Shown here: piece by piece, positions 10,735 to 58,554 of the stretch
Layout of the letters: the number at the start of each line of letters is the position of its first letter
How positions within the stretch are numbered: position 1 is the first letter of the stretch
NCBI GenBank assembly: GCA_016432465.1
Contig: CP066690.1
Location: 186,702 to 250,701 of the forward strand
DNA from: Candidatus Sungiibacteriota bacterium
Lineage (GTDB): Bacteria; Patescibacteriota; Minisyncoccia; Sungbacterales; HO2-52-23
Reading direction: 5' to 3'
Length of the DNA stretch: 64,000 bases
Program-made: the position numbers and the translations under genes
The notes under the pieces: generated by a model
Databases searched by the model: none
Told to the model about the DNA's origin: nothing
Seen by the model: the letters and a program-made list of their open reading frames with translations, nothing else

Positions 10735-10780
10735 AGATGGGGGACTTGACGTACGAAGGTCCTACTGATAGCATGCGGGT

Positions 10781-32716: not shown

Positions 32717-32726
32717 TAAACTTCCC

Positions 32727-33018: not shown

Positions 33019-33227
33019 CCGATAGTGATTTATCCCGTTAGAGATTTATTACGTATGGAAACATGCAGTAAGACGCGTTCCGCATACATTGATATCCTAC
33101 AAACCGCATTTAGTTCCATATCTCTAACGGGATTTACGGTTAGACTTGATAAATAACTTACTCCCATAGTAATTATACATATTATAACCCCGGCAGGTAT
33201 GAACTTTATCACTATCGGGATTCATAA
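33019..33227. mobile_element. Nested MITE-like element: outer inverted repeat TCCCGATAGTGAT / ATCACTATCGGGA enclosing an inner element (33032-33133) with ATCCCGTTAGAGAT / ATCTCTAACGGGAT terminal repeats
   Basis: Both inverted-repeat pairs read directly. Confidence 0.5.
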
Positions 33228-35947: not shown

Positions 35948-38900
35948 CTACTTCAAACCTTTCAGCAAACTTCTTAACCTTTCCAGAATCGCGTTTAGCG
36001 ACTCGGTAATGGAGGCGATGAGTTTATTGGTTGAAACCGCGGGTAATTCTGCAACCGCAAGATTCCCGGTGCTGGAATCAAGTTTGGCTAAAAAGATATC
36101 TGTTGCCCCGCCAAAACTTAAGTTATTCAAAGAGCCCTCCACATATCCGGTTATAAAAGGATTTCCCGAATTGTCCAAAGCTATCGCGCTACCCGTGTCT
36201 AACTGCGAAGTACCCAGAAGGTACGACCATAATTTATTGCCGCTCGCATCATATCTTAGTGTAAAGATGTCGCGACTGCCGCTATTGGTTTTGCCGTCCA
36301 GCGGCCCATCAGTGCCCCCGACAATAAAGGAACCGCCTGATCCCGAAACCGCAAGACCATTCGGCCAGTCATTGCCGTAACTTCCAAACTGTCGAAGCCA
36401 GACTAGAGTCCCTGAACTATTGTATTTTGCAAGAAAAACGTCAACGGCTCCGGCAGAAGTCTGACCTGTTAACGCACTAGCGGTCTCACCAGCAACATAA
36501 ATGTTACCGGAGGAATCCGTACCCACCCCGTTCCCCGCGTCAGTCCCCGAAGCCCCCAAGAGTCTTGTCCAAATACGATTGCCGTTAGCGTCATACTTCG
36601 TAAGAAACATGTCATTACCACCCGCAAAAGTTTGTCCATCAATTGCGCTGCCAGTATTACCGGTAACATAGACATTGCCGGAACTATCAGAATTAACTGC
36701 TCTGGCTCGCTCGGCTGTAGAGCCACCCCAAAGCCGTGACCAAAGTTTGGTTCCGTTACTGTCGTATTTCACCAGCAGAATATCCAAATCCCCTCCAAAG
36801 GATTGTCCATCTATGGATCCCGAAGCATCACCAGCGGCATAAATGCTTCCATCAACGGGGCTTACAGAAACGCCCCAGAAGCGGTCTAGCCCCGACGTAC
36901 CTATCAGACGAGTCCATAATCTTGTCCCGTTGCCGTCATATTTTACAAGCAACGCATCACTGCTTCCAACATAAGTTTGCCCATCTATGGATCCTGCCGC
37001 ATGGCCTGCCGCATAGATATTCCCCTGACCGTCTGATTTAACGCTGGTAAAATTGTCTCCGCCGGTTGATGATCCTACCAGACGGACCCAGATTTTATTC
37101 CCGCTACTGTCGTATTTAGCTACTAAAGCATCGTAGTCAAATGCGACTGAGCCTACCGGCGCTTGTCCATCTATGGCCCCATCAGTGGTACCGGCAATAT
37201 AAATAGCTCCGCTAGAGTTATCAGCCGTCACCCCTGCGGCTGAATCAAAACCCGAGCCCCCTAAAAGTTTCAACCAAGAAGCCGCTGCGGATAAAGTGAC
37301 AAAAGTAAAATCATCAGACGTGGCGCTTATACCCAACGAGCCTTTGGATAATACACGGTAGTGGTACGTTGTACCGGCCTGCAGGCCGGGAATCGTAACC
37401 GAGTGAGAAGTGACAAGTTCTGAATAAGAAACCGAGTAGCCATAGATAGCGGTTTGTCCGTGTTCCACCTTACTGTCTGACGCCCCATCCGTAGTCCAGG
37501 TTACGGTGACGGAATTTTGAGTGATGTTTGTTGCCTGAACGTTAGAAATTTGGGGCGGCGCCGGATCGGTAGTAAACAAACCGGTGGAGGTGGCCATATT
37601 GCCAGCCGCATCTTTAGATTTAACGCGGAAATAATAAGTGGTGCTTGGCTGCAATTGTGAAAGCGTAACCGCATGTGAATTTACCATGCTAGTATTCAGG
37701 GACGTATTACTGCCGTAAGAAGTTGTAAGGCCGTACTCAGCTTGTGAATCAGCTACTTCATTCGTGAACCAAATTATAGATACGCTCGTGGAAGCGGAAT
37801 CAGTACTTCCCGTGGTGTAGAGATTTGAAATCGTTGGCGGCGTGACATCAGAAGGAGCAGTAGTGGAGGAACCGTAGATCACTGAATTTGACTCTGTGCC
37901 CGTAGCACCCGCGCACGTATAATTACCGCTACACCCAAAGACCTTGTATTTGTAGGAATAGCCGCTGACAAAAGCCTCATCCCCAACTGAACCCCAGACA
38001 TGCGTATCATTATAGGTATATGTAGAGCCGCTCCTTAACGTAGAACCGATCCAAACACCGCAGGCGCCGGTTGGAAAAGAGCCCCCATTGACACTTCTGT
38101 AAACACAGTATAATGGCGCCCCAGAATCTGGCCAGCTTAAGGTGATTTTTCCAGCGCCCGGAGTGGCGGTTACCGAAGTGGGTGGAGTATAAGCGGCAGT
38201 TGTTGTAGTGGTAGTGGTCGTGGTCGTAGATACGAATGTGGTTGCCGGCGTTGCAGAAGTTGCCGGCGTTGCTGAAGTAGTAATACCACCACCGCTTACG
38301 GGCTGGGCGGGTAAGGCCGGAGTTGCAGGGACTGCGGGAATTGTCCCGGATGTGGTAGTGGTTGTCGCTGAAGTTGATGGCGGAAGAGCAATCAAGGTAG
38401 TTGTTGCAGAAAGAGTTGGGGTGGTCGTGGCAAGTTTCTTCTCAATTCCGGGAGCAGTCAGAAGTCCCGGAGGAATAACACCTGATGCTCCGGCTCCCCG
38501 TTCTAAAAGTCCTTGGATAACTCCCCTGCCTAGTTCTTGGAATTTGGCAATGGTCCTGGGTCCCACAATCCCCACTGATTCAATCCCTTGTTTTTCCTGC
38601 CATTTTTTTACTGCAGTTTCGGTGAGGGGGCCGAAAAAGCCGGTAATTAGGCCTTCCGGATAAATTTCTTTGTCTTTGGCTAGAAATTCCTGGAGGCGAC
38701 GAACATCGTCTCCGGATGATCCCCGAGATAAGGAGCGGGTGAGTTCCGGAGGAGCGGTTTCTGGTTGAGACAATGGTATTTCTGCTGCAGAAGACGGAGC
38801 GGGTTCGGCTACGCTTGTTGCCGGAACAACAGGGGGTTCCGGAGTTTTACCCAGTTCCTGCTGAAGGGTTCTTACTTGCGCTTGGAGTGTTTGGATTTGG

Positions 38901-39022
38901 GCTTGAAGTTCACGAATTAAAGCTTGGAGGTCGGAGGATGGAGGGTTTTGAGCAAATACAAAATTGGCGGCAAGAAGCGCCGCAAAAAGAGTTAAAACAA
39001 ACAAGCAGTATTTAAAACCCAT
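35948..39022 (-). CDS. Giant (1024 aa) surface protein: signal, coiled coil, PG-binding-like domain, Thr-rich linker, FN3-like domains, ~8 SBBP beta-propeller repeats
   Basis: LQALIRELQAQIQTLQAQVRTLQQEL; SRGSSGDDVRRLQEFLAKDKEIYPEGLITGFFGPLTETAVKKWQ; repeated SGN.Y.AG...G..D.FL.KYD.SG..LW. Confidence 0.8.
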   Translation of the reverse strand: MGFKYCLFVLTLFAALLAANFVFAQNPPSSDLQALIRELQAQIQTLQAQVRTLQQELGKTPEPPVVPATSVAEPAPSSAAEIPLSQPETAPPELTRSLSRGSSGDDVRRLQEFLAKDKEIYPEGLITGFFGPLTETAVKKWQEKQGIESVGIVGPRTIAKFQELGRGVIQGLLERGAGASGVIPPGLLTAPGIEKKLATTTPTLSATTTLIALPPSTSATTTTTSGTIPAVPATPALPAQPVSGGGITTSATPATSATPATTFVSTTTTTTTTTTAAYTPPTSVTATPGAGKITLSWPDSGAPLYCVYRSVNGGSFPTGACGVWIGSTLRSGSTYTYNDTHVWGSVGDEAFVSGYSYKYKVFGCSGNYTCAGATGTESNSVIYGSSTTAPSDVTPPTISNLYTTGSTDSASTSVSIIWFTNEVADSQAEYGLTTSYGSNTSLNTSMVNSHAVTLSQLQPSTTYYFRVKSKDAAGNMATSTGLFTTDPAPPQISNVQATNITQNSVTVTWTTDGASDSKVEHGQTAIYGYSVSYSELVTSHSVTIPGLQAGTTYHYRVLSKGSLGISATSDDFTFVTLSAAASWLKLLGGSGFDSAAGVTADNSSGAIYIAGTTDGAIDGQAPVGSVAFDYDALVAKYDSSGNKIWVRLVGSSTGGDNFTSVKSDGQGNIYAAGHAAGSIDGQTYVGSSDALLVKYDGNGTRLWTRLIGTSGLDRFWGVSVSPVDGSIYAAGDASGSIDGQSFGGDLDILLVKYDSNGTKLWSRLWGGSTAERARAVNSDSSGNVYVTGNTGSAIDGQTFAGGNDMFLTKYDANGNRIWTRLLGASGTDAGNGVGTDSSGNIYVAGETASALTGQTSAGAVDVFLAKYNSSGTLVWLRQFGSYGNDWPNGLAVSGSGGSFIVGGTDGPLDGKTNSGSRDIFTLRYDASGNKLWSYLLGTSQLDTGSAIALDNSGNPFITGYVEGSLNNLSFGGATDIFLAKLDSSTGNLAVAELPAVSTNKLIASITESLNAILERLRSLLKGLK

Positions 39023-43179: not shown

Positions 43180-43836
43180 TCACGCCTCTTTTGCTTGGGG
43201 TACAGTACTTGATTTACCCTCCTCCCAAAAACCAAAAATGATGCCTCCGATTTCAAGTTGATATACCATAACAAAGTGCGGGTCACCAGCAAAACGTTCC
43301 TCTGCTTTATACACGTCACTCACAAAGAAATGTATACGATCCTCACTTTGATCAGAAAAGTTTTTCTTAAGACTTGCTATAGTTCTAAGATCAATTAGCG
43401 GTATTTCTCTCGCATAAGGATTAAAACTACTATAAAAACCACCATACTGATAGGAGAAAGATTCCCCGCCAAACTTAAACCCATCAATCTTATCTCTGGG
43501 CCGTAATGCTTTCCAAACCCACTCACGATAAATAGACGCGTCTTCTGGTGAATCATCCGGAATCACTTTGTCGGGTACTTCTTTGCGCGGCCTAAGGTTA
43601 AGAAAACCAAAAACCTCTTGCGGATTATAAATGAGGATCTTTTGTGTCTTCAGAAAGAACAATATCGCTCTCCGCAAAACCGTAGGCAAGTGACACCCAA
43701 CAGCTTGTATAAGTTGGGTGTATTCCTCTAGCTCCTCCGGGCTCATTCCAATATCAGCATCGGTTACCTCACGCGGCTCCGGCTTTTTAATTGCCGGTCT
43801 TGGCAGCGATAGTTGCCTGCGCTTTTCCCAGAACAT
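43180..43836 (-). CDS. Hypothetical protein, paralogue A of a tandem pair
   Basis: Shares KKPEPREV / VIPDD / W.ALRP.D / FFVS / IIFG.W blocks with the next gene. Confidence 0.55.
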   Translation of the reverse strand: MFWEKRRQLSLPRPAIKKPEPREVTDADIGMSPEELEEYTQLIQAVGCHLPTVLRRAILFFLKTQKILIYNPQEVFGFLNLRPRKEVPDKVIPDDSPEDASIYREWVWKALRPRDKIDGFKFGGESFSYQYGGFYSSFNPYAREIPLIDLRTIASLKKNFSDQSEDRIHFFVSDVYKAEERFAGDPHFVMVYQLEIGGIIFGFWEEGKSSTVPQAKEA

Positions 43837-43861
43837 TGGTGCTCCTTTCCTGGTCTTGGTT

Positions 43862-44566
43862 TTAGGCTACTTCTTCCGACGGAATTTCAGCAAAATCCGG
43901 TCCGTTCCAGTGGCCGAAAATTATCGGCTGCATATTGTCACCACGGACTATAATAAACGCCGGGTCATCAATGGTTCTACGGCTGATATACAGGCTAACA
44001 AAGAAGTTTATTCTGATATCAAATTTTTTAGCAAGAAGCACTGCCGTCTCCAGCACCTTACGGGGGACAATATCAGAATAGTGTGGGGAGCCAGCACCAG
44101 AAAAGTAACCATGCGAATATGTTCTATTATGTGTGTGCTCATCTGGAAAAGAAAAGGTGCGTGCGTTTAGGTCTTTTGGGCGTAGCGCCATCCAACCCCA
44201 ACCTCTCCAAGAAACAGGTTGTTTCTTTTGGACTCCGTCGTCAGGAATAATTTTCCTTGGCTCGGGTTGAGAAACCAAAAAGTCACAGGCCTGAAGGTAT
44301 AAAAACACAGCTTCTTTTTCGTAGATTTTAATGCCCGAACTTTTAAGCAGTAGCAGCAATTCTGCCCTCAATGCCGCCGCGGGCTGAAAATCAATGCTGG
44401 CGCCAAGCCGGCAATACTCTAACCACGTTTTCTCGTCAAAATCACCGTAAAGTTCTGGTATTTCTTGGGGTTCTGGCCTTTTGACCATTATTAATTTTGA
44501 AGGTGCAGGAGTAATTCCATCTGCTTTTTTAACCGGGAGTTTGCTTCTTGATGTAAAAAGAGACAT
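43862..44566 (-). CDS. Hypothetical protein, paralogue B of the tandem pair
   Basis: KRPEPQEI, IIPDD, WMALRPKD, FFVS, IIFGHW. Confidence 0.55.
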   Translation of the reverse strand: MSLFTSRSKLPVKKADGITPAPSKLIMVKRPEPQEIPELYGDFDEKTWLEYCRLGASIDFQPAAALRAELLLLLKSSGIKIYEKEAVFLYLQACDFLVSQPEPRKIIPDDGVQKKQPVSWRGWGWMALRPKDLNARTFSFPDEHTHNRTYSHGYFSGAGSPHYSDIVPRKVLETAVLLAKKFDIRINFFVSLYISRRTIDDPAFIIVRGDNMQPIIFGHWNGPDFAEIPSEEVA

Positions 44567-44656
44567 CCTTTAATCCCCCATCAAGCTAGCATCTAGTATT
44601 GCATAACTATATAACTTTGTCAAGTGACAGCAAAAAAACGGCGTTGAACGCCGTCT

Positions 44657-45322
44657 TCAGCCATGAAACCGATCAACCCTGTTGGACAGACTGTAGAAAC
44701 TTAATAGCGGGGTTTGGTGAGCTGTAGCTTCCCCTGTACCCGCTTCATGCGGTTGTTCATCCAGAATTTCTTTGGTTTTGCTAAGCTTTGTAAACCGTCT
44801 TTGCAGGAACAAAAATTTTATTCTCTTGAAAAGCCCAAAGTCAAAAATTCCCCGAATTCCCATAATAATCTCTTCAAGGGTTATCGTAACAGTTCCGGCT
44901 AATAGGAAGGTGGCGACAGAACGAGCCACTGGTTCTACTGTATTATCCATAACTCCCCAATAAGAAGTTGCGGCCGAAATTATCAAAGTAAGAAAGCCGA
45001 CTGCGGCAATATTGCGTTTGACCGAGCGCACAACTATTTTTTCCAATTCCTTCCTTTCGTGATCAGGCAACCCGCACAGCTCAAGCGTATCATCAAACAT
45101 GTATCTTCTGACGTATCGCTCCAGAAGCCTATGGTACTCTAACGAGTCCCTAGTCAGTCTTTGTTTACGAAACTCCAAGGCTTCTTTTCTGGCTGTCTCT
45201 TGGGCCTCAACCCTCTGCTTTTGAGCAAGACGCTCAAGCTCATGATGCCGTTCTATGCGCCTTGTCTGAATACGTTCACGTGCATTTTGCATGATCACCG
45301 GATCCATTTTTTCACCTCGCAC
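44657..45322 (-). CDS. Hypothetical protein with a central TM segment
   Basis: Charged N-terminal coiled region; AAVGFLTLIISAATSYWGV TM. Confidence 0.45.
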   Translation of the reverse strand: MRGEKMDPVIMQNARERIQTRRIERHHELERLAQKQRVEAQETARKEALEFRKQRLTRDSLEYHRLLERYVRRYMFDDTLELCGLPDHERKELEKIVVRSVKRNIAAVGFLTLIISAATSYWGVMDNTVEPVARSVATFLLAGTVTITLEEIIMGIRGIFDFGLFKRIKFLFLQRRFTKLSKTKEILDEQPHEAGTGEATAHQTPLLSFYSLSNRVDRFHG

Positions 45323-46149
45323 TGGTTCTCTTCCAAAACGACAAGTAACTCCTTATGAAATAAGGTACGGGCAAACTCTTCCTCCTCGTCTGCGCCCTCA
45401 TTTCTTACCAAAGTTAGGTTGAAAATACCCCCATTCAGCGTCAGCACGACATCTGTAAAAGACACGGCAACCATATTTTTATTAATTTTTTCTGTTTTTC
45501 CGCTGCCCTCGTAGTGCGCCAAGTGACCAAGACGGTCACAATAAACTGCCGCAGCACCCCGAAAAAGTAAGGTTTGGTCGCTAGCTAGTCCGAGATTGTG
45601 ACGCACCAAAATAGAATTTGTGTCTTCCTTAAGTTCTTTTTCCCCCGCGTCATCCCTTCTAAACTTTCTAATTCTTCTGCAGTCACACCTAACTTTTTCC
45701 TCTCTCCAAAAACTCCAGTTACCAAAAGATTGTAAAAGGGCGCTAATCTTCCCCTGCTTTGTTCCACCCAGCCATGCGGCGTCCGCAAGCAAAGTTCCTT
45801 CTGAAGGAAACCCTGTTTTTTCGTTCCACACCACACTGCATATTTGTGGCGCGTCTTTCTGATGTTCCAGAACCTCGGCGTGAGCCGCAAGAGCAAGGAG
45901 AAACATTTTGTGCAAGACGGCCATCGCATAGAAGTCGGGGCCAGACTTTTTTATTTCAAATTTAGAGACCGTATCCAGCCGTTCTTGAATACGCGCCAGT
46001 GATTCCTCGGGCGTAAGGATGTTTGCCCATGGCTCTTTCTGTATAGAAGAAGCCTGTTCCTGCTGTCCAAAGACAAAATCTCCAGAAAGTTCGCCCAAGG
46101 GAACAGAAAGTAACCCACCACCGTCAACAGCTCCCATAAGTCTCCCCAA
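45295..46149 (-). CDS. Hypothetical protein
   Basis: Co-oriented ORF; no motif recognised. Confidence 0.45.
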   Translation of the reverse strand: MGRLMGAVDGGGLLSVPLGELSGDFVFGQQEQASSIQKEPWANILTPEESLARIQERLDTVSKFEIKKSGPDFYAMAVLHKMFLLALAAHAEVLEHQKDAPQICSVVWNEKTGFPSEGTLLADAAWLGGTKQGKISALLQSFGNWSFWREEKVRCDCRRIRKFRRDDAGEKELKEDTNSILVRHNLGLASDQTLLFRGAAAVYCDRLGHLAHYEGSGKTEKINKNMVAVSFTDVVLTLNGGIFNLTLVRNEGADEEEEFARTLFHKELLVVLEENQCEVKKWIR

Positions 46150-46283
46150 ACAAGTAGTAAAAAGCTGTATCTATTATAATCATGAAACGACCCATGAGTC
46201 AAGTCCTTCGTAATGGTTCAATAGCTTGTAACCACCCCGTATAAATTAAAAACAGGTTCCCCTATGGAAACCCGTTCTTCTTT

Positions 46284-46538
46284 CTATTTTTTATCTGCTG
46301 CCTTCTTGCGTCCGGAGCGTTCCTGTTTTTTTGCGTCAGCCCTACCCTTTTCAAACTGACCCACAATGGTTCCTGCACCGTAAACAGTCCTTTTGGTCAA
46401 TTCTCCTGCTGCTTCGGCGGCATTTCCCATCAGTCTTTTTCCGCGCTCCCAAAGATAACTTCCCACTACTCTAGTCTGCCCCTTCAGGAACTCAAGCTCT
46501 GGACTAAACTTCCGGTGGTCGTTTTTGTCTTTAGCCAC
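46284..46538 (-). CDS. Small hypothetical protein (84 aa)
   Basis: Co-oriented ORF; basic C-terminus. Confidence 0.4.
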   Translation of the reverse strand: MAKDKNDHRKFSPELEFLKGQTRVVGSYLWERGKRLMGNAAEAAGELTKRTVYGAGTIVGQFEKGRADAKKQERSGRKKAADKK

Positions 46539-46543
46539 GACTA

Positions 46544-46765
46544 CTACTCCCTATCCCTATTTTCTCTTCGTCTTGCTTTAGAAACAAGCCAAACTAACCC
46601 CAACACACCCGCAACTGGCACCGCTAATGCCGTTACAGTAGTAATCGCCATACTGCCAACCCCGAGTGAAAAACCAAGCACTTTCCATAAAGCCGCTCCT
46701 CCTGCTCCAGCAACTACTATCGGTCCTACCAAATTCCCCACACTGCGTGCACTACTCCTTGCCAT
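46544..46765 (-). CDS. Small glycine-zipper membrane protein (start probably at the internal Met MARSSARS)
   Basis: GPIVVAGAGGAALWKVLGFSLGVGSMAITTVTALAVPVAGVLGLVWLV. Confidence 0.45.
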   Translation of the reverse strand: MARSSARSVGNLVGPIVVAGAGGAALWKVLGFSLGVGSMAITTVTALAVPVAGVLGLVWLVSKARRRENRDRE

Positions 46766-47789
46766 CGGCCGCCTCCCCTTGCTGAACGGCACCTTCTGCC
46801 GTCTGTTCCCCACCAGCTTTTGCTGCGGGACCAACCGCCCTGCTTCTTACCCGCGCCTCAAGTTGCAGGCGCCCGGAAGACGCGGGCCCCAAGACGCGGG
46901 CACATTTTTCACGCAACTCTGTATCCGCCAACTCAAGACGTTCTACAAGTTCACGACCTGCTACAGGACGCTTATTTAAAACCTCCATCACGTCAACTGC
47001 GGCCATCAGGGATTGATGCGAACTCTCAACCGTCTTTATCAGCAACTCACCCGCAACAAAAACGCCTCTACCTGCCCCAAGCGCGGCCCTAGCAGCCTCG
47101 CGATGCGCGGTGATACTTGGCTTCAAGGTGGCAAACTCAACGTACATCGCTATCACCATATGTATGATGCCTAGAATCTCATTGCTTACCGAACTTAATT
47201 TCCGGCTTGCCTTCTCCAGAGCGGTTTTTCTTCTTTGCAGACTAGCAAGAATCATTTGAGCAAAGATGTCTTTTTCTTCTTGGTCCATGTTTTCGCCGCG
47301 AAGTCTAAGAAGTTCAACCACTTCCGGATCAATTGCCAAACCCATTTTATTTGATTCATCAAGACTGTACTTAAAAAGCTCTTCCTCGTCCCAACCACCT
47401 TCTGTGGCATCTTGAATGACTCCAGCAAGACGTTCCTTTTCTTCTGCATTATTCATTTCTACATACTTAATATCCAAGGCGCTCTCCTGAAGACTGTTGG
47501 CCCACTCTCTTATCACCTGCTCTGCCCCCACCAGCGGATCAAATCTGTTATCCATAAAACCAAACAACAATTTTTGAACCTTTTTGATGGGTATCAAAGC
47601 CACCACACCTTCCATCACGCCCCTTAAAAAGTCCTCGGCCGAAGACGGCTCTGATTCCATCATCTCTTCCAGACGCTCTGGCAACTTCTCTCTTTGTTCG
47701 TTAGCTGCTCTTACCTTCCTAATTATTGCTTCAATGCTGCGTCCGCCTTCTAAACGATCTCGTGTTTCAACAACTCCGCTGACTGCCAT
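46752..47789 (-). CDS. Coiled-coil hypothetical protein (345 aa) in a GC-richer segment
   Basis: Long helical/charged regions; a TelA-like assignment was considered but not supported. Confidence 0.5.
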   Translation of the reverse strand: MAVSGVVETRDRLEGGRSIEAIIRKVRAANEQREKLPERLEEMMESEPSSAEDFLRGVMEGVVALIPIKKVQKLLFGFMDNRFDPLVGAEQVIREWANSLQESALDIKYVEMNNAEEKERLAGVIQDATEGGWDEEELFKYSLDESNKMGLAIDPEVVELLRLRGENMDQEEKDIFAQMILASLQRRKTALEKASRKLSSVSNEILGIIHMVIAMYVEFATLKPSITAHREAARAALGAGRGVFVAGELLIKTVESSHQSLMAAVDVMEVLNKRPVAGRELVERLELADTELREKCARVLGPASSGRLQLEARVRSRAVGPAAKAGGEQTAEGAVQQGEAADGKE

Positions 47790-48840: not shown

Positions 48841-50172
48841 TCAATTGTGATTAAGGGCTCCTTCAGTATAAATATTAGCGGCGTTCCAAAGGAGCCACCC
48901 GTGCGGCTCTGCTTTTTCTGCGGCTTCAACTTGTTTACGAATTTTCTCAACGCCCCATGGCCTACCAGCGACCCTATCTTCTTCATGGAAAAAATCTTCA
49001 AGCCACGGACGGAGACGCGCCCGGGAACGGGGAGTAGAACTTGCGGCTAGAGTTATTGCGGAAGTGGCCGGAGAAAAACCGTTAAAGGTGCTCGTGCTGA
49101 TTTTTCCATCAAGAAAATCTCTGGCAAACTGCAGCGAACGATATACCACAACGTCGGGATTTTTGCGGGCCTGCGACACACTAAAATTAACGACCGGTAA
49201 ATTCTTGTCCGGGTCGGCCTGAAGATAAAGTCCGCTGTAGTAGTGTGAAGGGTAAACCATAAATGATACGTAGTCAAAATTGTCGCCGATGTCATCTAGC
49301 CGCTGACCAATGCCCACGTCTCCGGCCCGAATCGCGGCGTACCCAAAAAGATCTGCCGAAAGTATTATATCCGGTTTGTGGGCCTTAAGATTTTTATTTA
49401 AATACTCAAAAAAACTTTTCATAACCGAGTACTTGGGGGCTTTTCCGTCCCAAGCAGGATAAATAGCATTCTCTACATCGCCGTCCGAAGGAAACCTTAA
49501 ATAGTCAAACTGCAATTCATCAAAACCCAAATCAATTATTTTTTTAGAAAAGTCCGCAATATACTCGCGCGCGCCCTGATGAGCAGGATCCAACCAATAG
49601 CCCCCGCGTTTATCGCGCCAAAAAACCACATCCGGTTTTTTACCCTCCGGACTTTTAGCGCGGAGATATTTTTTTCTGCCGCACTCATCGCCAACCGCTT
49701 TAGGACTTTTTCTGGTCAGGTACCAGTCGGGGTGCGTTTCAATCTGCGAGGCATCTTTGAAAGCAACAATCCGCGCAATAACCCAAATCTTTTTTTGATG
49801 AAGCTCCGCAATCAATTTTTTTAAACTTTCGGCGTTATAGTCAGGCCCGCAGACTTCTTTAACGTCAATCACAAGACCGTTGATCTCTGTCTCGTCAGCA
49901 AGCTCAATAATTTTCTTGCGAAGCCGTGTACCCGCAACACCCTGATCATTGGCCACGTCTGCTGTCATATAAAGTCCCTTGACGGTTTGGGACTTTTTAA
50001 GGGCTTCGGCCAGTAATTCTGCGGAGGTTTTTTCTTTAGCGGGCTGCATACCGGACGTCAAAATCCCACCAGCCAAATTGCCTATAAATATTTTTGGTGC
50101 GGCCCAGTAAATAGTTAAGGCGGCGGCACCAACTATGATTCCCGTGCCAAGACCCATCAAAAACCTATTCAT
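48841..50172 (-). CDS. Membrane-anchored putative glycoside-hydrolase-like TIM-barrel protein (GHL10/DUF4015-like)
   Basis: N-terminal TM; GYWLDPAHQGAREYI and FDELQFDYLRFP motifs. Confidence 0.55.
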   Translation of the reverse strand: MNRFLMGLGTGIIVGAAALTIYWAAPKIFIGNLAGGILTSGMQPAKEKTSAELLAEALKKSQTVKGLYMTADVANDQGVAGTRLRKKIIELADETEINGLVIDVKEVCGPDYNAESLKKLIAELHQKKIWVIARIVAFKDASQIETHPDWYLTRKSPKAVGDECGRKKYLRAKSPEGKKPDVVFWRDKRGGYWLDPAHQGAREYIADFSKKIIDLGFDELQFDYLRFPSDGDVENAIYPAWDGKAPKYSVMKSFFEYLNKNLKAHKPDIILSADLFGYAAIRAGDVGIGQRLDDIGDNFDYVSFMVYPSHYYSGLYLQADPDKNLPVVNFSVSQARKNPDVVVYRSLQFARDFLDGKISTSTFNGFSPATSAITLAASSTPRSRARLRPWLEDFFHEEDRVAGRPWGVEKIRKQVEAAEKAEPHGWLLWNAANIYTEGALNHN

Positions 50173-50207
50173 GGCTTAAGTATACTTAAAGGAAACAAAT
50201 TTAAAAA

Positions 50208-50232
50208 CAGCCCCGACGTTACGTCGGGGCTG
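50208..50232 (-). terminator. Intrinsic terminator CAGCCCCGACGT t ACGTCGGGGCTG 22 nt after the pafA-like stop
   Basis: 12-bp stem followed by TTTTTAAATTTGTTTCC on the minus strand; shares its core with the 3970-3990 hairpin. Confidence 0.6.
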
Positions 50233-50253
50233 TTGATCATATCAAACGTCGGG

Positions 50254-51732
50254 TCAACCAAGATCGCCCTGCAGTCTTTTTAACCTCTTGATGTCTCTTG
50301 CTACGAGCTTATGGCTGCCCCGCAAAGAACTGGACACCGGTATGCTCCTACCTTTTACGCTAAATAAACCCCAATCATAGTAACCAGAGAGTCCGCTTCT
50401 GACCAAGGCCGTAATGTGACGTTTACGAAGCTCGGCTCTCGGAGCAGCCCTGTGCTCCCATAACACTTCACGCATCTCCTCATCCGAGAAAGGATCACGG
50501 CCGCCCAGACGCGCCTGCCACATATTATAAATACCGACCGGACTTATATCATGGTAGGCAAAATCAAACATACGCGCCCGGAAATCTGAATAATCAGACC
50601 TTTCCTTGCGACAATAATTATCCAGTAGCAGACGCTTTAAAGACCAGTCAGTATCATTAGCATACGCCTCCGGGTCGGTTCCTGTCCTAATAAGGTTGTG
50701 GGCATGTCTAAGAGTTCCCCTGATCTTATCGGACGTGTCTGTCGTTTCTCCTTCATAAAATTTGCGTAAAATCTCCAGCCACTCCAAAAGAACTTCCCGC
50801 ATACACCACTGGCCGCGTCCTTTAACAACTGTTTTTGCTCCAAGTGACGGGTCTAAAGAAAACGTCCGCAGGGCGTCATAAGGATCCTCTAAAAGCGGCA
50901 GGCTTGATCCTACGGGTCCTTTTTCAAAAAGAGAAAGAAAGACGTGCATAAGTGTCACCCGTAAACGAAGCGCTTGAGGCAACATGTTAGGGTCCCCAAG
51001 AGAAAGATGCAAACGCGTCCTGCCTTGAGGACAGTCTTCCCTTTCATTTTTAAAGTCAATAGATGGATGTCCACTCATCTCACCGTGCCAATAAACAAAT
51101 GGCTGGCGCATAAGTGCACGGGGAGAGATAACGTACTGCCACCCCAATCCGTCAAGATTCACTAAACCCCCTCCTCCAGCTAACAGCTGTCTTGAAACCA
51201 GAAGAGAAATCAAGGCTTCAAAAAATAATGGATGTTTCTGGTGGATCGTCAAATCATATCTGGTTTCGTAATTCTCATGCGAGCCGCGGAAATGGATTTT
51301 TTTGGACTTACCCCTGACAGCGTCAGAGTTATTCTTTGCAATAACCAGTGTTTTAAATTGCGGATTTTGTGAACGGAGGACTGGTTCTATGGCCTCACGC
51401 AGCAGATTAATAACCCGCTCGCCGCCCTTATCTGCCCGTACAAGCTGCTCCACGCTGCAGCACTCCGGCGTAGCGTACTCAACGTTGCCGGCATCAAGAT
51501 AAAGCGCGCCGCCGGTTGAACCTAACCAAAAGTCTTTTCCGGCGTCCCCCATCAAAAAAAGTTTCTTGACTGCGGGTGGACAGCCATCGTCTGCAAGAGA
51601 GATAATCTGATGTACTGGTTTAAAAAAATACATGTCCACCTTTACCATACTTGAAAACCTGTTCTTGTTGTTTTTTGTACGTACTGCGGTCAGGCTATAC
51701 TCGGTCTCAATACCCATGGGGCGACGTTTCAT
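50254..51732 (-). CDS. PafA/Dop-family carboxylate-amine ligase (Pup--protein ligase / depupylase homologue)
   Basis: MKRRPMGIETEYS, GGALYLDAGNVEYATPEC, KNNSDAVRGKS...GSHENY and DFAYHDI match PafA MQRRIMGIETEF, ARLYLDVGSHPEYATAEC, KNNTDSAG..GCHENY, DLAYHDI. Confidence 0.8.
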   Translation of the reverse strand: MKRRPMGIETEYSLTAVRTKNNKNRFSSMVKVDMYFFKPVHQIISLADDGCPPAVKKLFLMGDAGKDFWLGSTGGALYLDAGNVEYATPECCSVEQLVRADKGGERVINLLREAIEPVLRSQNPQFKTLVIAKNNSDAVRGKSKKIHFRGSHENYETRYDLTIHQKHPLFFEALISLLVSRQLLAGGGGLVNLDGLGWQYVISPRALMRQPFVYWHGEMSGHPSIDFKNEREDCPQGRTRLHLSLGDPNMLPQALRLRVTLMHVFLSLFEKGPVGSSLPLLEDPYDALRTFSLDPSLGAKTVVKGRGQWCMREVLLEWLEILRKFYEGETTDTSDKIRGTLRHAHNLIRTGTDPEAYANDTDWSLKRLLLDNYCRKERSDYSDFRARMFDFAYHDISPVGIYNMWQARLGGRDPFSDEEMREVLWEHRAAPRAELRKRHITALVRSGLSGYYDWGLFSVKGRSIPVSSSLRGSHKLVARDIKRLKRLQGDLG

Positions 51733-51862
51733 CCATAACCCTAACTTAAAGATCTACGACAACTATAACAGGTCTATGCAGAAAATTAACGTTGACTTGG
51801 GAGAGAAAACGGGTTATGCTGATTTCAAACCAGCTCTTTAAATTTAGACGGACGGAGGTCGT

Positions 51863-54049
51863 GTGGCTCGGTGGCTAAAAAAAATATTTCTGGGGATAGG
51901 CGGTATAACTATTCTGTTTTTTCTGGGCTTAGGTGTGATCACACTGCTTCTTTATCTAAAGGGGTTTTTTGAATCGCCTAACCTCTCACGCCTTCAAGAT
52001 ACGCGTGGCGCCAGCATTGTTTATGACTCGGAGGGCAACGCTCTAAAAGAATTTTGCTTGTATTGTCGCGAAGTAATACCGCTGGAGGATATGGGGCTTT
52101 TTCCAAAACTTGCGGTGGCGGTTGAGGACCGACATTTTTGGAGTTTCTGGAGAGAAATTTCGCCCTTTGATTTTTTGGCGGTCCTGCGCGCGTTTTGGCA
52201 TAACCTGAAAGAGGGCGGCATAACCCAAGGCGGATCTACTATTACCCAACAACTGGCACGCATTCTTTTTGCAGAAGAGGAGCTGGAACGTGAATGGGAG
52301 AGCGGAAAGTTATCCGACAAACTTTGGCGCAAGGCCCGCGAAGCGTATCTTGCCACCATTCTGCAGTGGCGCATAGACAGGAAAAAAATTCTTGAGACCT
52401 ACCTGAACACCGTATATTGCGGCAACAGCAGATACGGCGTAAAGTCATGCAGCCGGTTTTATTTTGATAAAGACCCCAAAGATTTACAACTCATTGAGGC
52501 CTTAACCGTTGCCGGTCTTTGGAGGAATCCCAACGCGTCGCCATTCCACGATGAAGAAAAAGCACTTAAACTTAGAAACCGCGCGCTGCAGCAAATCGCT
52601 AACCAAGACCTCATCAGCGAAGAAGAAAAACTAAGACTGGAGCGGGAGAAACTTCCTACTAAAAAAACCAAAGATCCGTGCTGGAGCGCTCCGCACTTCA
52701 CGGAATTTATCAGACGCCAGATTATAGAAGAACAAAAATTTGTTGATCAGGGAATAAGGGTTTACTCTACTCTGGAAAACGGATGGCAAAAAGCGGCTTG
52801 CGAGGCGTTGGAAGCGTCGCTGGAGGCCATGAAGCAAAGAAACCCGGAATTAAAAAACGATCTCTGGGGATCCGCCTTTCTTATAGATGTGAGAACGGGG
52901 GCAATTGAAGTCTGGGCACAATATCCTACGTTCAAAGAAAATGAATTTCTACTGAACCAAAGTGCACGGCAAACCGGTTCTGCTTTCAAGCCCTTTTTTT
53001 ATGCCGCCTGGATTGCGCTGCGAGGAGGAAGACTTAGCCATCAAGATGAGGGGGAAGGACCGGCAGAGTTGGATGACTCCTATATGTCTCACGACGGAAA
53101 ATCAGCTATTTATATACCAATGGGCAGGAAAAAACCTCCGCATTTTCTGCAAAACTTCCCCTATGAGGGTCTTCCGCGTTATATAGGCATTACCGAACCA
53201 ATAAACTGTATTGCCCAATCCCGAAACGTATGCACCTTGAGCGGCATACGGGGTGTCCGGGGCTCAAGAGTTTTGTTTCGGCATCGCATCACCAAGGAAG
53301 AGTTAATAGAATTTTCTTTGGGGTTGGGAATAAATTTCCCGGTGATATCACCAGAGACAGCTATTCAGCAAGGGATAGCAACCGTTGATCCGGAACTGAC
53401 CAAACATCTTGGAATCTCCCCCTACACCATTGACCCGGGTCTTACTCTGCCCATTGGGTCAGTAGAGGTATCGCTTTGGGATATGGTTAAGGCCATGGCG
53501 GCTCTTGGTGGAAACATGGTTGAACCCTATGCAGTTGGAAGCGCTTACGACGCCTCCGGCAAACTTATTTTTGAGAAAGAACTGGAAGCGCCGTATCAAC
53601 CACTGGACGATGAGACAACTTATGCCATAATACGGGGCTTACGTTCCACTGTTGAACTTCCTCACGGGACCGGAAAAAAGGCCAAGGAAGAACTTAATTT
53701 TCAGATAATGGGAAAAACAGGAACGGCTAACCGCGTAAATCCCGAAACCGGTGAGGTGGAAACAACAGATAACTGGTTTATCGGCTGCACTCCTCAAAAG
53801 TGTATGGGGATCTGGATCGGCCGTGAAAAAAAGTTGCCCCTGAAAACTACTTTTCAGAACGGCCAGAAAATTCAGGAGACTGGCGGACGCAATGCTCTAC
53901 CCATATTCATCAAAACGATGGGGACTGTGTACGAGACAGAACCTATAGAGAATTTCCCGGAAGCAACCGATCCGCTTAAACCGTTTCGTCCTTCGGAATA
54001 TAAATACACTTATGAAAATGGGGCTATGCCCGAAAACAATGATTATTAA
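51863..54049 (+). CDS. Class A penicillin-binding protein (glycosyltransferase + transpeptidase)
   Basis: GT51 motifs EDRHFW and QGGSTITQQ; transpeptidase SAFKPF (SxxK) and KTGTA. Confidence 0.9.
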   Translation: MARWLKKIFLGIGGITILFFLGLGVITLLLYLKGFFESPNLSRLQDTRGASIVYDSEGNALKEFCLYCREVIPLEDMGLFPKLAVAVEDRHFWSFWREISPFDFLAVLRAFWHNLKEGGITQGGSTITQQLARILFAEEELEREWESGKLSDKLWRKAREAYLATILQWRIDRKKILETYLNTVYCGNSRYGVKSCSRFYFDKDPKDLQLIEALTVAGLWRNPNASPFHDEEKALKLRNRALQQIANQDLISEEEKLRLEREKLPTKKTKDPCWSAPHFTEFIRRQIIEEQKFVDQGIRVYSTLENGWQKAACEALEASLEAMKQRNPELKNDLWGSAFLIDVRTGAIEVWAQYPTFKENEFLLNQSARQTGSAFKPFFYAAWIALRGGRLSHQDEGEGPAELDDSYMSHDGKSAIYIPMGRKKPPHFLQNFPYEGLPRYIGITEPINCIAQSRNVCTLSGIRGVRGSRVLFRHRITKEELIEFSLGLGINFPVISPETAIQQGIATVDPELTKHLGISPYTIDPGLTLPIGSVEVSLWDMVKAMAALGGNMVEPYAVGSAYDASGKLIFEKELEAPYQPLDDETTYAIIRGLRSTVELPHGTGKKAKEELNFQIMGKTGTANRVNPETGEVETTDNWFIGCTPQKCMGIWIGREKKLPLKTTFQNGQKIQETGGRNALPIFIKTMGTVYETEPIENFPEATDPLKPFRPSEYKYTYENGAMPENNDY

Positions 54050-56866: not shown

Positions 56867-56968
56867 ATCCCGTTAGAGATGCGGAACGTAATGTTCTTTG
56901 TGACATCAATAAGAATGGCGGAGTGCTTGTATCAACCGTTTCAGTACTGCATAAATCTCTAACGGGAT
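56867..56968. mobile_element. MITE-like element copy (102 bp), terminal repeats ATCCCGTTAGAGAT / ATCTCTAACGGGAT
   Basis: Terminal repeats read directly; internal sequence is the reverse complement of unit 2 of the 58365-58554 copy. Confidence 0.6.
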
Positions 56969-57004
56969 AAATAAATACCGCTGGCAGAGCCAGGCGGCAC
57001 AAAT

Positions 57005-57826: not shown

Positions 57827-58045
57827 TTATAGGAAATCTAGGAACTGTTTTAACTCCAAACCCGATTGTGTAATGATATGTTTTAATGTCTTCCGTTTCA
57901 AATCTTTGTTATGATACGGAACTGTCACGCCGACCCTACCTTTAATGTAAATCCGATGGCTCCCTTTTTGACGCTCAAATACAAAACCCGCTCTTTCCAG
58001 AGCGACTATAACCTCTCTTGGTTTAAGAACGGGCGATTTAGGCAT
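57827..58045 (-). CDS. hicA: HicA-family toxin (mRNA interferase)
   Basis: ALERAGFVFERQKGSHRIY...VPYHNKDLKRKTLKHIITQSGL. Confidence 0.8.
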   Translation of the reverse strand: MPKSPVLKPREVIVALERAGFVFERQKGSHRIYIKGRVGVTVPYHNKDLKRKTLKHIITQSGLELKQFLDFL

Positions 58046-58306
58046 CTATACCTTAACTTCAATCGGAGCAATAACCGCGCCTCTGGTTTCTAGCGGAATT
58101 TCTGTGTTCTTTTTCTCCATAACTTCAATGTATAAACTGGCAGCCTCTTTTATATTTTCTGCCGCTTCCTCAAAAGTATCCCCTTCCGAAATGCAACCAG
58201 GTAATGCGGGAATGGTTGCAGTAAAACCGCCAGCTTTTTCGTCCGGCTCAAAAACGGCTGTATATTGATATACTTTTTTAATTATTTTTCGCTTCATTAA
58301 ATTCAT
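58046..58306 (-). CDS. hicB: HicB-family antitoxin (UPF0150)
   Basis: YTAVFEPDEKAGGFTATIPALPGCISEGDTFEEAAENIKEA; abuts hicA. Confidence 0.75.
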   Translation of the reverse strand: MNLMKRKIIKKVYQYTAVFEPDEKAGGFTATIPALPGCISEGDTFEEAAENIKEAASLYIEVMEKKNTEIPLETRGAVIAPIEVKV

Positions 58307-58364
58307 TATACCCGGATTTGGTGTGGTGTCAACAACTTATTTTTTTGTACCGAGTTTTGGATTT

Positions 58365-58554
58365 ATCCCGTTAGAGATGCAGGTCATATCCTTAATGCGA
58401 GCTTAGCGTGAAAAGCTATTTACCACTTGGTAATTTTCGGATTTGCACTTAATTCTCTAACGGGATTTATGCAGTACTGAAACGATTGATACACACACTC
58501 CGCCATTCTTACTGATGTCGCAAAAAACACTGCATTCCGCGTCTCTAACGGGAC
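58365..58554. mobile_element. Composite MITE-like element: terminal repeat - unit 1 - terminal repeat - unit 2 (inverted copy of the 56867-56968 core) - terminal repeat
   Basis: ATCCCGTTAGAGAT at 58365-58378; ATTCTCTAACGGGAT at 58452-58466; GTCTCTAACGGGAC at 58541-58554. Confidence 0.6.

What the first reader, a model, noticed from the sequence alone, without database searches (positions are those of the whole stretch)
50254..51732. Lone PafA/Dop-family (Pup-ligase/deamidase-like) enzyme in a CPR-like genome with no pup or proteasome partner in view
The 492-aa protein carries the diagnostic PafA/Dop blocks (MGIETEY, YLD.G...EYATPEC, KNN.D...G.HENY, D.AYHDI) and the carboxylate-amine ligase fold signature, so it belongs to the family that ligates or removes the prokaryotic ubiquitin-like protein Pup. 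It is monocistronic: its own terminator lies at 50208-50232, and its upstream region faces the divergent PBP1A gene. Its neighbours are a membrane GH-like protein and cell-wall enzymes; none is a Pup (~64 aa ending GGQ/GGE), Mpa/ARC or 20S proteasome gene. The spacer between GIETEY and the EYATPEC block is ~65 residues, intermediate between PafA (~42) and Dop (~85). A stand-alone PafA/Dop homologue in a reduced-genome lineage suggests either an unrecognised small-protein tagging system or a ligase repurposed for a different substrate.
Basis: partly seen in the sequence, partly recalled or inferred. Interest (0 to 1): 0.8.

Follow-up and report, generated by a model that had tools for sequence, protein, structure and literature searches.

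The report
Stand-alone divergent PafA/Dop-like enzyme, CPR
This is an intact gene for an enzyme of the family that attaches or removes the bacterial ubiquitin-like tag Pup, but it belongs to a rare, fast-evolving third branch found in tiny-genome (CPR) bacteria, where it has no tag, unfoldase or proteasome gene beside it, so its substrate is unknown.

Summary
Window 50254-51732 (-) encodes a 492-aa protein that matches Pfam Pup_ligase end to end (184.8 bits). It folds confidently (pLDDT 90.7) into the PafA/Dop fold (TM 0.78, against 0.45 for YbdK) and keeps the GhExE motif, the catalytic Asp and the C-terminal domain. It is neither PafA nor Dop. It scores 134 and 112 bits against equivalog cut-offs of 551 and 492, lacks the Dop-loop signature, and sits in a separate clade (98.5% NJ bootstrap).

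That clade is rare: 13 representative clusters among 1.84 billion proteins, and 2 of 185,579 species genomes. Where members are named, they come from Sungbacteria and Saccharibacteria. None of about 10 genomic contexts has a Pup/UBact, Mpa or proteasome gene. By contrast, 134-141 of about 157 loci of the nearest canonical relatives do, including one Patescibacteria MAG with a complete locus.

The gene is under purifying selection (dN/dS 0.24), yet it diverges about twice as fast as its syntenic neighbours.

The most likely function is an ATP-dependent gamma-carboxylate-amine ligase acting on an unlinked, unrecognised partner. The rest of the 923-kb genome could not be scanned, so "lone" is shown only for this window. 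NCBI already labels the protein "PafA2 family protein". I rate it a new variant of a known kind, of moderate interest.

The parts
50254..51732 (-). Gene for the 492-aa Pup_ligase-family (PafA/Dop-like) protein, a member of a third, CPR-associated clade
   Evidence: ORF. PF03136 at 184.8 bits. Below the PafA and Dop equivalog cut-offs. AF2 pLDDT 90.7. Foldseek TM 0.78 to PafA and to Dop. Separate clade in the tree.
51697..51714 (-). Codons for G7-I-E9-T-E11-Y12, the GhExE ATP/Mg-binding motif of the carboxylate-amine ligase superfamily
   Evidence: Motif position. Nearly invariant across 31 homologues. Role of the motif from Hecht 2020, PMC7947786.
51523..51672 (-). Codons for aa 21-70, the insert between strand 1 and the Y78-L-D80 strand. 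It is predicted to be structured (helix 32-45) and lacks the Dop-loop W-DFEEE signature.
   Evidence: Secondary structure and pLDDT 80-94. Alignment with Dop-type and PafA-type sequences. Dop-loop definition from PMC8599861.
51493..51495 (-). Codon for D80, equivalent to the active-site Asp (Acidothermus Dop D94, C. glutamicum PafA D64)
   Evidence: phmmer alignments to 5lrt/4b0r and 4b0t. Invariant in 31 homologues.
51286..51321 (-). Codons for aa 138-149, a clade-specific insertion between KNNSD and GSHENY at the active-site cradle
   Evidence: Alignment against PafA and Dop types. Lower pLDDT (61-72) in this stretch.
50257..50499 (-). Codons for roughly aa 412-492, the C-terminal domain typical of pupylation enzymes. 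It includes APRAELRKR (430-438) and W454, which aligns with Dop W453.
   Evidence: Alignment to Dop extends to residue 477. Invariant R432, A433, R436 and W454. Domain definition from PMC8599861.
50206..50234 (-). Terminator-like hairpin (13 bp, 9 GC pairs) followed by a T-rich tail, 20 nt after the stop codon
   Evidence: Consensus scan. Sequence read directly. A related hairpin occurs at 3969-3991.
51733..51862 (.). 130-nt divergent intergenic region between the ligase gene and the PBP1A gene. It presumably holds both promoters.
   Evidence: ORF coordinates. A promoter-like site on the + strand at 51792-51820. No site on the - strand passed the scan threshold.
48841..50172 (-). Context only: downstream gene for a membrane-anchored DUF4015 (putative glycoside-hydrolase-like) protein. 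It is not conserved next to the ligase in other genomes.
   Evidence: Pfam PF13200. Contexts of relatives.
51863..54049 (+). Context only: divergently transcribed class A penicillin-binding protein (PBP1A-type)
   Evidence: Pfam Transgly + Transpeptidase.

Best explanation
The gene encodes a catalytically competent but highly divergent member of the PafA/Dop (Pup_ligase) family. It represents a third lineage beside PafA and Dop. That lineage is so far seen only in CPR/Patescibacteria (Sungbacteria, Saccharibacteria) and occurs as a stand-alone gene.

Shown: family membership, the fold, retained active-site residues, purifying selection, a separate phylogenetic position, and the absence of linked pup/UBact, mpa and proteasome genes.

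Inferred: like PafA, it binds ATP through GhExE, phosphorylates a gamma-carboxylate (most likely the C-terminal Glu of a protein or peptide bound in the family's groove), and transfers it to an amine, forming an isopeptide or amide bond. It may also run the reverse reaction, as PafA can. It acts on a partner that is encoded elsewhere and is not a recognisable Pup/UBact, and it does not depend on a linked proteasome. Its unusually fast sequence divergence suggests that the partner or target surface also changes quickly.
For: Family and fold: PF03136 matched full length at 184.8 bits, and it is the only Pfam hit. Best solved relatives are Dop (E 5.5e-33) and PafA (E 4e-21). The AF2 model has pLDDT 90.7 and pTM 0.92. 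Foldseek gives TM 0.78 to the PafA-Pup complex 4bjr and 0.77-0.78 to Dop, against 0.45 to YbdK.

Active site: G7, E9, E11, Y78, D80, E85, E90, H152, N154, Y155, R181, R205 and R240 are invariant or nearly so across 31 homologues. Dop R227 (PafA R207) corresponds to K228, which is K or R in the clade. Dop H241 corresponds to H242. Dop W453 corresponds to W454.

Not PafA and not Dop: NCBIfam scores are 134 against a cut-off of 551 and 112 against 492. There is no W-DFEEE Dop-loop, there is an insertion after KNNSD, and NTRDEPHAD is replaced. In the NJ tree the close clade has 100% bootstrap, and the close clade plus the Sungbacteria sister clade splits from all PafA, Dop and UBact-type paralogues at 98.5%.

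Rarity and taxonomy: 13 representative clusters at E<1e-56 among 1.84e9. Two loci in 185,579 species genomes. Named members are Sungbacteria or Saccharibacteria.

Stand-alone: there is no proteasome, Mpa or UBact gene in the window or in any locus of the clade. By contrast 116 loci of the more distant relatives carry Mpa-like genes, 134-141 carry proteasome genes, and most carry UBact.

Functional gene: dN/dS is 0.24 at 76% amino-acid identity. The identical gene occurs on 8 contigs from several runs.

Fast evolution: ligases at syntenic positions are 33-36% identical, while their neighbours are 51-81% identical, in two independent synteny blocks.

Ligase direction: Hecht 2020 argue that the PafA/Dop ancestor was a ligase with promiscuous reverse activity.
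Against: No substrate or partner was identified, so the protein-tagging step is pure inference from family membership.

The NTRDEPHAD nucleotide/phosphate-pocket motif is largely replaced. Some clade members have Q instead of the His equivalent to Dop H241. The chemistry or the nucleotide use may therefore differ.

The alpha-loop region that sets the ligase-versus-hydrolase direction is modelled with low confidence (residues 216-219 have pLDDT below 50), so the direction cannot be read from the model.

The rest of the 923-kb genome was not examined.

The tree is neighbour-joining on 82 sequences, with two partial PDB anchors.
Confidence: 0.5

Rival explanations
1. This is ordinary pupylation or UBact tagging whose other parts (modifier, Mpa/ARC, 20S, perhaps a second PafA/Dop) are encoded elsewhere in the 923-kb genome. 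The gene would simply be an unlinked, divergent PafA or Dop.
For: A Patescibacteria MAG (L077) carries a compact locus: Mpa-like ATPase, two Pup_ligase paralogues, two proteasome subunits and a 64-aa ORF ending in KSGE. CPR bacteria can therefore have the full system. The window protein keeps the C-terminal domain specific to pupylation enzymes. Only 64 kb of the genome was visible.
Against: In canonical relatives the parts are tightly linked: 134-141 of about 157 loci have proteasome genes within 10 kb. None of about 10 contexts of this clade has any of them. The protein lies outside both the PafA and Dop clades and far below both equivalog cut-offs. L077's own paralogues group with the canonical sequences, not with this clade.
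Confidence: 0.2
2. It is a small-molecule carboxylate-amine ligase, like GCS2/YbdK or glutamine synthetase. It would make a gamma-glutamyl amide or peptide, perhaps related to the cell envelope given its neighbours, and would not be a protein tagger.
For: In this genome it lies between PBP1A and a DUF4015 glycoside-hydrolase-like gene. The clade has remodelled active-site segments: an insertion after KNNSD and the loss of NTRDEPHAD. No modifier gene was found. Iyer 2008 describe other carboxylate-amine ligase families without Pup-like ORFs and predict that they make small peptides.
Against: The cell-wall context is not conserved. Relatives sit beside an exonuclease-WYL protein, RNaseH-like, MazG, Nth, APRT or a histidine kinase. 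The fold matches PafA and Dop at TM 0.78, including the C-terminal domain, against 0.45 for YbdK. No GCS2 Pfam hit appears.
Confidence: 0.15
3. It is a Dop-like amidase or deamidase: a hydrolase that removes a gamma-glutamyl-linked group or deamidates a C-terminal Gln, rather than a ligase.
For: The best sequence match among solved structures is Dop (E 5.5e-33, against 4e-21 for PafA). The region equivalent to the alpha-loop is predicted as a loop rather than the PafA helix. An insert precedes strand 2, as in Dop.
Against: NCBIfam scores PafA higher than Dop (134 against 112 bits), and the top Foldseek hit is PafA. The conserved Dop-loop motif (W47, DFEEE) is absent and the insert is predicted to be structured. 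A lone hydrolase with no ligase to make its substrate is hard to rationalise unless the ligase is elsewhere.
Confidence: 0.1
4. It is a decaying or function-less remnant of a lost pupylation system.
For: It evolves about twice as fast as its neighbours, and no partner genes are present.
Against: The ORFs are full length in all 13 or more clusters, with invariant catalytic residues. dN/dS is 0.24. The fold is predicted confidently. The gene has its own terminator.
Confidence: 0.03

Closest known systems
Dop (deamidase/depupylase of Pup; Acidothermus cellulolyticus Dop, PDB 4B0R/5LRT/7OXY; TIGR03688)
   Same: Same Pfam family and same fold (TM 0.77-0.78), and the best sequence match among solved structures (E 5.5e-33). 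GhExE, the catalytic Asp (D94 corresponds to D80), H241 (H242), W453 (W454) and the C-terminal domain are all retained. An insert precedes strand 2.
   Different: About 28% identity. It scores 112 bits against the cut-off of 492. It lacks the conserved Dop-loop motif W47-DFEEE, and the insert is shorter and predicted to be structured. R227 becomes K228 and the NTRDEPHAD motif is lost. It falls in a separate clade. No pup, mpa or prcBA gene is adjacent.
PafA (Pup ligase; Corynebacterium glutamicum PafA, PDB 4B0T/4BJR; TIGR03686)
   Same: Same family and fold: it is the top Foldseek hit, TM 0.78, in the PafA-Pup complex 4bjr. The catalytic Asp (D64 corresponds to D80) is retained, as is EYATxEC with the Cys. 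The presumed ATP-dependent gamma-glutamyl phosphate chemistry is shared.
   Different: About 24% identity. It scores 134 bits against the cut-off of 551. It has an extra N-terminal insert and an insertion after KNNSD. The alpha-loop region is not modelled as the PafA helix. Substrate-recognition R207 is replaced by K. It lies in a separate clade and has no linked Pup.
UBact-type Pup-proteasome loci of Nitrospirota, Poribacteria, Nitrospinota, Verrucomicrobiota, Armatimonadota, Fraserbacteria and one Patescibacteria MAG (L077)
   Same: These are the nearest relatives outside the CPR clade, at 25-30% identity. They are non-actinobacterial Pup_ligase family members.
   Different: Those loci have two paralogues each, a modifier ending in ...YRQRTG[EQ] (KSGE in L077), an Mpa-like ATPase and two proteasome subunits. 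The window clade has one gene and none of these partners.
[quoted passage not shown] 2008, PMC2588565; Hecht et al. 2020, PMC7947786)
   Same: These set a precedent for a single Pup_ligase-family gene that is neither PafA nor Dop and is not linked to proteasome genes.
   Different: Iyer et al. describe those genes as linked to a Pup gene and a membrane protein, with four transmembrane segments inserted in the ligase. The window protein has no TM insertion and no linked Pup. I did not test the relationship between the two groups directly.
Tandem Pup_ligase paralogues of Candidatus Sungbacteria (RIFCS MAGs; e.g. OHA07462/OHA07463 and OHA03315/OHA03316; locus L007)
   Same: This is the sister group of the window's clade, with joint 98.5% bootstrap. 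It comes from the same candidate phylum. It too lacks linked Pup, Mpa and proteasome genes.
   Different: About 29% identity. It occurs as two or three tandem paralogues between an M50 peptidase gene and rpsL-rpsG. The window gene is single and sits in a different context.

Membership tests
Pup_ligase / PafA-Dop family (Pfam PF03136) | Profile match above Pfam's gathering score over the full domain | tested here: met
   184.8 bits against a cut-off of 25, profile positions 2-430 of 441, and the only Pfam family found.
Pup_ligase / PafA-Dop family (Pfam PF03136) | GhExE ATP-binding motif and the conserved active-site Asp of the beta-sheet cradle | tested here: met
   G7-I-E9-T-E11 and D80, invariant or nearly so in 31 homologues. 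They align to Dop D94 and PafA D64.
Pup_ligase / PafA-Dop family (Pfam PF03136) | [quoted passage not shown] | tested here: met
   AF2 pLDDT 90.7. TM 0.77-0.78 to PafA and Dop over about 500 columns, against 0.45 for YbdK. The sequence alignment to Dop reaches residue 477 and W454 aligns with W453.
PafA (Pup-protein ligase, TIGR03686 equivalog) | Score at or above the equivalog cut-off | tested here: not met
   134 bits against a cut-off of 551.3.
PafA (Pup-protein ligase, TIGR03686 equivalog) | Groups with bona fide PafA in a phylogeny | tested here: not met
   The C. glutamicum PafA anchor falls in a different clade. The window clade plus its Sungbacteria sister clade is split from all others at 98.5% NJ bootstrap.
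PafA (Pup-protein ligase, TIGR03686 equivalog) | Helical alpha-loop region (C. glutamicum H188-S200) that favours ligation | tested here: inconclusive
   The equivalent residues, about 208-224, are modelled as a loop, with pLDDT below 50 at residues 216-219.
Dop (depupylase/deamidase, TIGR03688 equivalog) | Score at or above the equivalog cut-off | tested here: not met
   112 bits against a cut-off of 492.3.
Dop (depupylase/deamidase, TIGR03688 equivalog) | Dop-loop of 40-65 residues before strand 2, with the conserved W47 and DFEEE | tested here: not met
   The insert at aa 21-70 has no W-DFEEE. Dop-type sequences in the same alignment show RWDFEEE or RWDY. The insert is predicted helical and structured. 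The definition comes from PMC8599861.
Pup/UBact-proteasome system (as a gene system) | A small modifier gene ending in G[EQ] (Pup, or UBact ...RTG[EQ]) near the ligase | tested here: not met
   No plausible G[EQ]-ending ORF in the window. The UBact HMM gives a best E of 2.2 on the six-frame translation. None was found in the relatives' loci either.
Pup/UBact-proteasome system (as a gene system) | Mpa/ARC ATPase and 20S alpha and beta subunits in the locus | tested here: not met
   Profiles built from 116-141 canonical loci find only FtsH in the window and nothing in the other loci of the clade.
Pup/UBact-proteasome system (as a gene system) | The same components anywhere else in the same genome | not testable with these tools
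   The 923-kb record holding QQG45526.1 is not in the genome collection that was scanned, and only 64 kb is available.
GCS2 / YbdK carboxylate-amine ligases | Best profile and structural match is to GCS2, with no pupylation-type C-terminal domain | tested here: not met
   No GCS2 Pfam hit at E<=1. YbdK (1r8g, 1tt4) gives TM 0.45 and E about 1e-6, against 1e-25 for PafA.

The most novel reading that the evidence does not exclude
The CPR clade is an ancestral-like, bifunctional tagging and de-tagging enzyme that uses a modifier unrelated in sequence to Pup or UBact, or directly cross-links target proteins. It would be independent of any proteasome. Its exceptional divergence rate would reflect co-evolution with a rapidly changing partner, for example proteins at the symbiont-host or phage interface. 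This would be a previously unrecognised protein-conjugation system in ultra-small bacteria.
Probability: 0.2. Interest if true: 0.8.

Novelty: new variant of a known kind. Interest (0 to 1): 0.55.

Why it matters
Pupylation is understood as a PafA/Dop pair working with Pup and, usually, with Mpa and a proteasome. A separate lineage of the same enzyme fold that persists under selection as a single gene in reduced CPR genomes, with no visible tag or degradation machinery, implies one of two things. Either there is a tag that current models cannot recognise, or the gamma-glutamyl ligase chemistry has been put to a different use.

It also offers a natural outgroup for the question of how ligase and hydrolase activities diverged. 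The finding gives a defined set of about 25 sequences and one confident structural model to test biochemically.

If the rest of the genome turns out to hold a normal pup locus, the finding shrinks to a divergent paralogue.

Tried and rejected
- **Whole-genome check for pup, mpa and prcBA.** This was not possible. The window's genome was not among the 185,579 species genomes scanned, and the look-up of encoding contigs returned only short Logan contigs identical to the window.
- **Looking for Sungbacteria proteasome or Mpa proteins by homology to the L077 components.** The beta-subunit search gave only 3 hits. The Mpa N-terminal search gave none, not even the protein itself. Both were uninformative.
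- **Foldseek against afdb50.** The library was unavailable.
- **Conserved partner by synteny.** tblastn of every recurrent neighbour of the relatives (exonuclease-WYL, RNaseH-like, abhydrolase, M50 peptidase, small ORFs, the L077 Pup-like ORF) against the window found nothing better than E=0.04.
- **Anti-phage defence or phage origin.** No PADLOC hit and no relative in IMG/VR. Rejected for lack of support.
- **dN/dS on the L008/L171 pair.** The two are too similar (99.2% amino-acid identity) for the value to mean anything. I replaced this pair with P0007 against P0010.
- **Literature.** I found no paper on PafA/Dop homologues in CPR in the searchable library. The original UBact paper is not held, so UBact's reported presence in some CPR phyla rests on my memory only.
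- **Reading ligase versus hydrolase from the model.** The decisive alpha-loop is modelled with low confidence.
Full report
**Observation.** Window 50254..51732 (minus strand) holds an uninterrupted 492-codon ORF with an ATG start and a TGA stop. The important one is that KNNSD and GSHENY are separated by an insertion that PafA and Dop lack. A 13-bp hairpin with 9 GC pairs and a T-rich tail lies at 50234..50206, 20 nt after the stop. A 130-nt divergent spacer separates the gene from a class A PBP gene. Downstream lies a DUF4015 gene, and beyond the PBP gene a DUF5715 gene.

**Family and fold.** Pfam gives a single family, Pup_ligase PF03136, at 184.8 bits over essentially the whole profile. The best solved relatives by sequence are Acidothermus Dop (E 5.5e-33) and C. 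glutamicum PafA (E 4e-21). An AlphaFold2 model built on 31 homologues is confident, with pLDDT 90.7 and pTM 0.92. It superposes equally well on the PafA-Pup complex (4bjr, TM 0.78) and on Dop (0.77-0.78). YbdK/GCS2 reaches only 0.45.

**Active site.** The residues that matter are retained.
- The GhExE ATP motif is present as G7/E9/E11.
- D80 corresponds to Dop D94 and PafA D64.
- E85, E90, H152, N154, Y155, R181, R205 and R240 are invariant or nearly so.
- A basic residue, K228, sits at the position of Dop R227 and PafA R207.
- H242 corresponds to Dop H241.
- W454 corresponds to the C-terminal-domain W453 of Dop.

**Neither PafA nor Dop.** NCBIfam equivalog scores are 134 bits against a cut-off of 551 for PafA, and 112 against 492 for Dop. 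The segment before strand 2 (aa 21-70) is longer than in PafA and shorter than in Dop, with 72 residues between GIETEY and EYATPEC against 87 in Acidothermus Dop. It is predicted to be structured (helix 32-45), and it lacks the conserved W-DFEEE of the Dop-loop, which Dop-type sequences in the same alignment do show. The clade also has an insertion after KNNSD and has replaced the NTRDEPHAD segment with SFK/R..C.

I built a neighbour-joining tree of 82 sequences. They comprised the close relatives, a sample of more distant representatives, both paralogues from UBact-type loci, and the PafA and Dop PDB anchors. The window's clade is recovered in 100% of 200 bootstraps. Together with a sister clade from Sungbacteria, it is separated from all PafA, Dop and UBact-type sequences in 98.5%.

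**Rarity and taxonomy.** Among 1.84 billion representative proteins, 1705 match at E<=1e-3. Only 13 clusters match at E<1e-56, and the sister clade follows after a gap, at 1e-40 to 1e-29. In one genome for each of 185,579 species, only two loci belong to the close clade: a Saccharibacteria MAG and an unclassified 'bacterium' MAG. The metagenome scan added only one more copy of the Saccharibacteria locus. None was found in IMG/VR.

The window protein itself is QQG45526.1 / UniRef100_A0A7T5UQT6, named 'proteasome accessory factor PafA2 family protein', from Candidatus Sungiibacteriota, on a 923,469-bp contig. The sister-clade clusters that carry names are all from Candidatus Sungbacteria or Parcubacteria RIFCS MAGs, often with consecutive locus tags.

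**Genomic context.** I recovered about ten distinct contexts.
- **Close clade, window:** PBP1A, then the ligase transcribed divergently, then DUF4015.
- **Close clade, three loci:** abhydrolase, ligase, DnaQ-type exonuclease fused to WYL, RNaseH-like.
- **Close clade, two related loci:** MazG, ligase and Nth, or ligase, APRT and Nth.
- **Close clade, two related loci:** MarR, RNase T, histidine kinase, ligase, and a 99-aa membrane protein.
- **Sister clade:** M50 peptidase, then two or three tandem ligase paralogues, then rpsL-rpsG.

None of these loci contains a proteasome subunit, an Mpa-like ATPase, a UBact-like ORF or any plausible ORF ending in G[EQ].

The next-nearest relatives, at 25-30% identity, are very different. 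They come from Nitrospirota, Poribacteria, Nitrospinota, Verrucomicrobiota, Armatimonadota, Fraserbacteria and Latescibacterota. Almost all have two paralogues, a modifier ending ...YRQRTG[EQ], an Mpa-like gene (116 loci) and proteasome genes (134-141 loci) within 10 kb. One Patescibacteria MAG (L077) has the whole set in 6.5 kb: an ATPase with proteasomal OB domains, two ligase paralogues, two PF00227 subunits and a 64-aa ORF ending KSGE. The canonical system therefore does exist in CPR, but L077's enzymes group with the canonical sequences, not with the window's clade. In the window, the only hit to Mpa profiles is FtsH (25028-26827). The other large AAA protein is ClpB (18694-21375).

**Selection.** The gene is identical at nucleotide level on contigs from four sequencing runs. 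Between two members at 76% amino-acid identity, dN/dS is 0.24, which indicates purifying selection. The adjacent small ORF gives 0.14.

The ligase nevertheless diverges unusually fast. In the exonuclease-WYL synteny block the three ligases are 33-34% identical, while the flanking proteins are 51-69% identical. In the MazG/Nth block the ligases are 36% identical, while the neighbours are 79-81% identical. Either the gene evolves at roughly twice the rate of its neighbours, or it has been replaced in situ by distant homologues. I could not distinguish these two possibilities.

**Interpretation.**
- **Shown:** a functional, structurally canonical but phylogenetically separate PafA/Dop-family enzyme, encoded alone.
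- **Inferred:** it uses ATP to activate a gamma-carboxylate, most plausibly the C-terminal Glu of a protein or peptide lying in the family's binding groove, and joins it to an amine.

I favour ligase over pure hydrolase for three reasons. A lone hydrolase lacks a source of substrate. The Dop-loop signature is absent. And Hecht et al. argue that the family's ancestor was a ligase with promiscuous reverse activity. The alpha-loop that sets direction is poorly modelled, however.

The main rival is that pup, mpa and prcBA lie elsewhere in the genome. Tight linkage in the canonical relatives, and the separate clade, make this less likely, but it could not be excluded. A small-molecule ligase role is suggested only by the cell-wall neighbours in this one genome, and that context is not conserved.

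**Relation to what is known.** Proteasome-independent, single-copy Pup_ligase-family genes have been noted before in Plesiocystis and Rhodopirellula, with a linked Pup and a TM insertion (Iyer 2008). They have also been noted as single-copy PafA/Dop-related paralogues in Planctomycetes (Hecht 2020). I found no paper dealing with the CPR clade. The proteins are in public databases under automatic names. I therefore rate this a new variant of a known kind, of moderate interest. Its value depends on the genome-wide partner check that I could not run.

Noticed in passing
L077:7847-14337 (Patescibacteria group bacterium isolate B5T1B11, JADFMT010000008.1): A compact, complete Pup-proteasome-type locus in a CPR MAG. 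It holds an AAA ATPase with proteasomal OB domains, two adjacent Pup_ligase paralogues, two PF00227 proteasome subunits, and a 64-aa acidic ORF ending ...RREKSGE that the UBact profile does not recognise.
   Followed up: partly
L007:5347-10253; also L170 and L174 (Candidatus Sungbacteria-type contigs): Two or three tandem Pup_ligase paralogues (512, 486 and 499 aa), the sister clade of the window protein. They lie between a small M50 peptidase gene and rpsL-rpsG-fusA, with no Pup, Mpa or proteasome gene nearby. This may be an independent duplication of the enzyme in Sungbacteria.
   Followed up: partly
L168:2881-5792, L005:1031-4069, L172:673-3555: In three Saccharibacteria-like loci the ligase is followed by a DnaQ-type exonuclease fused to a WYL domain, and then by an RNaseH-like (PF04308) gene. 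This recalls the actinobacterial pafA-pafBC (WYL) arrangement. The neighbours are 60-69% identical between loci, but the ligases only 33-34%.
   Followed up: partly
window 43180-47789 (-): A run of consecutive minus-strand ORFs of 218, 234, 221, 284, 84, 96 and 345 aa. The three I scanned against Pfam (84, 284 and 345 aa) have no hit. The 218-aa and 234-aa products have similar C-terminal ends (...IIFGFWEEG... and ...IIFGHWNGP...), which suggests they are paralogues.
   Followed up: no
window 32614-32628, 32704-32718, 33031-33045, 56955-56969, 58364-58378: A roughly 20-nt motif, TTTAYCCCGTTAGAGATTTAT, occurs five times (0.02 expected by chance) without extended flanking similarity. Three copies cluster around the start of an Rrf2-like/Fe-S assembly gene cluster. 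It could be a regulator-binding site, but its function is unknown.
   Followed up: partly
window 3969-3991 and 50209-50231: The ligase gene's terminator hairpin (AGCCCCGACGTAACGTCGGGGCT) has a near-copy (AGTCCCGACGTGACGTCGGGACT) after the 1221-aa gene at 4111-7776. No such matches are expected by chance.
   Followed up: partly
window 57827-58306 (-): A HicB-like antitoxin (86 aa, 58046-58306) and HicA toxin (72 aa, 57827-58045) pair.
   Followed up: no
window 4111-7776 (-), 11227-14520 (+), 35948-39022 (-); GC dip at 8001-12000: Three very large ORFs (1221, 1097 and 1024 aa) with N-terminal hydrophobic segments, probably surface proteins. A region of lower GC (0.38-0.42, against about 0.47 elsewhere) lies at 8-12 kb.
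   Followed up: no
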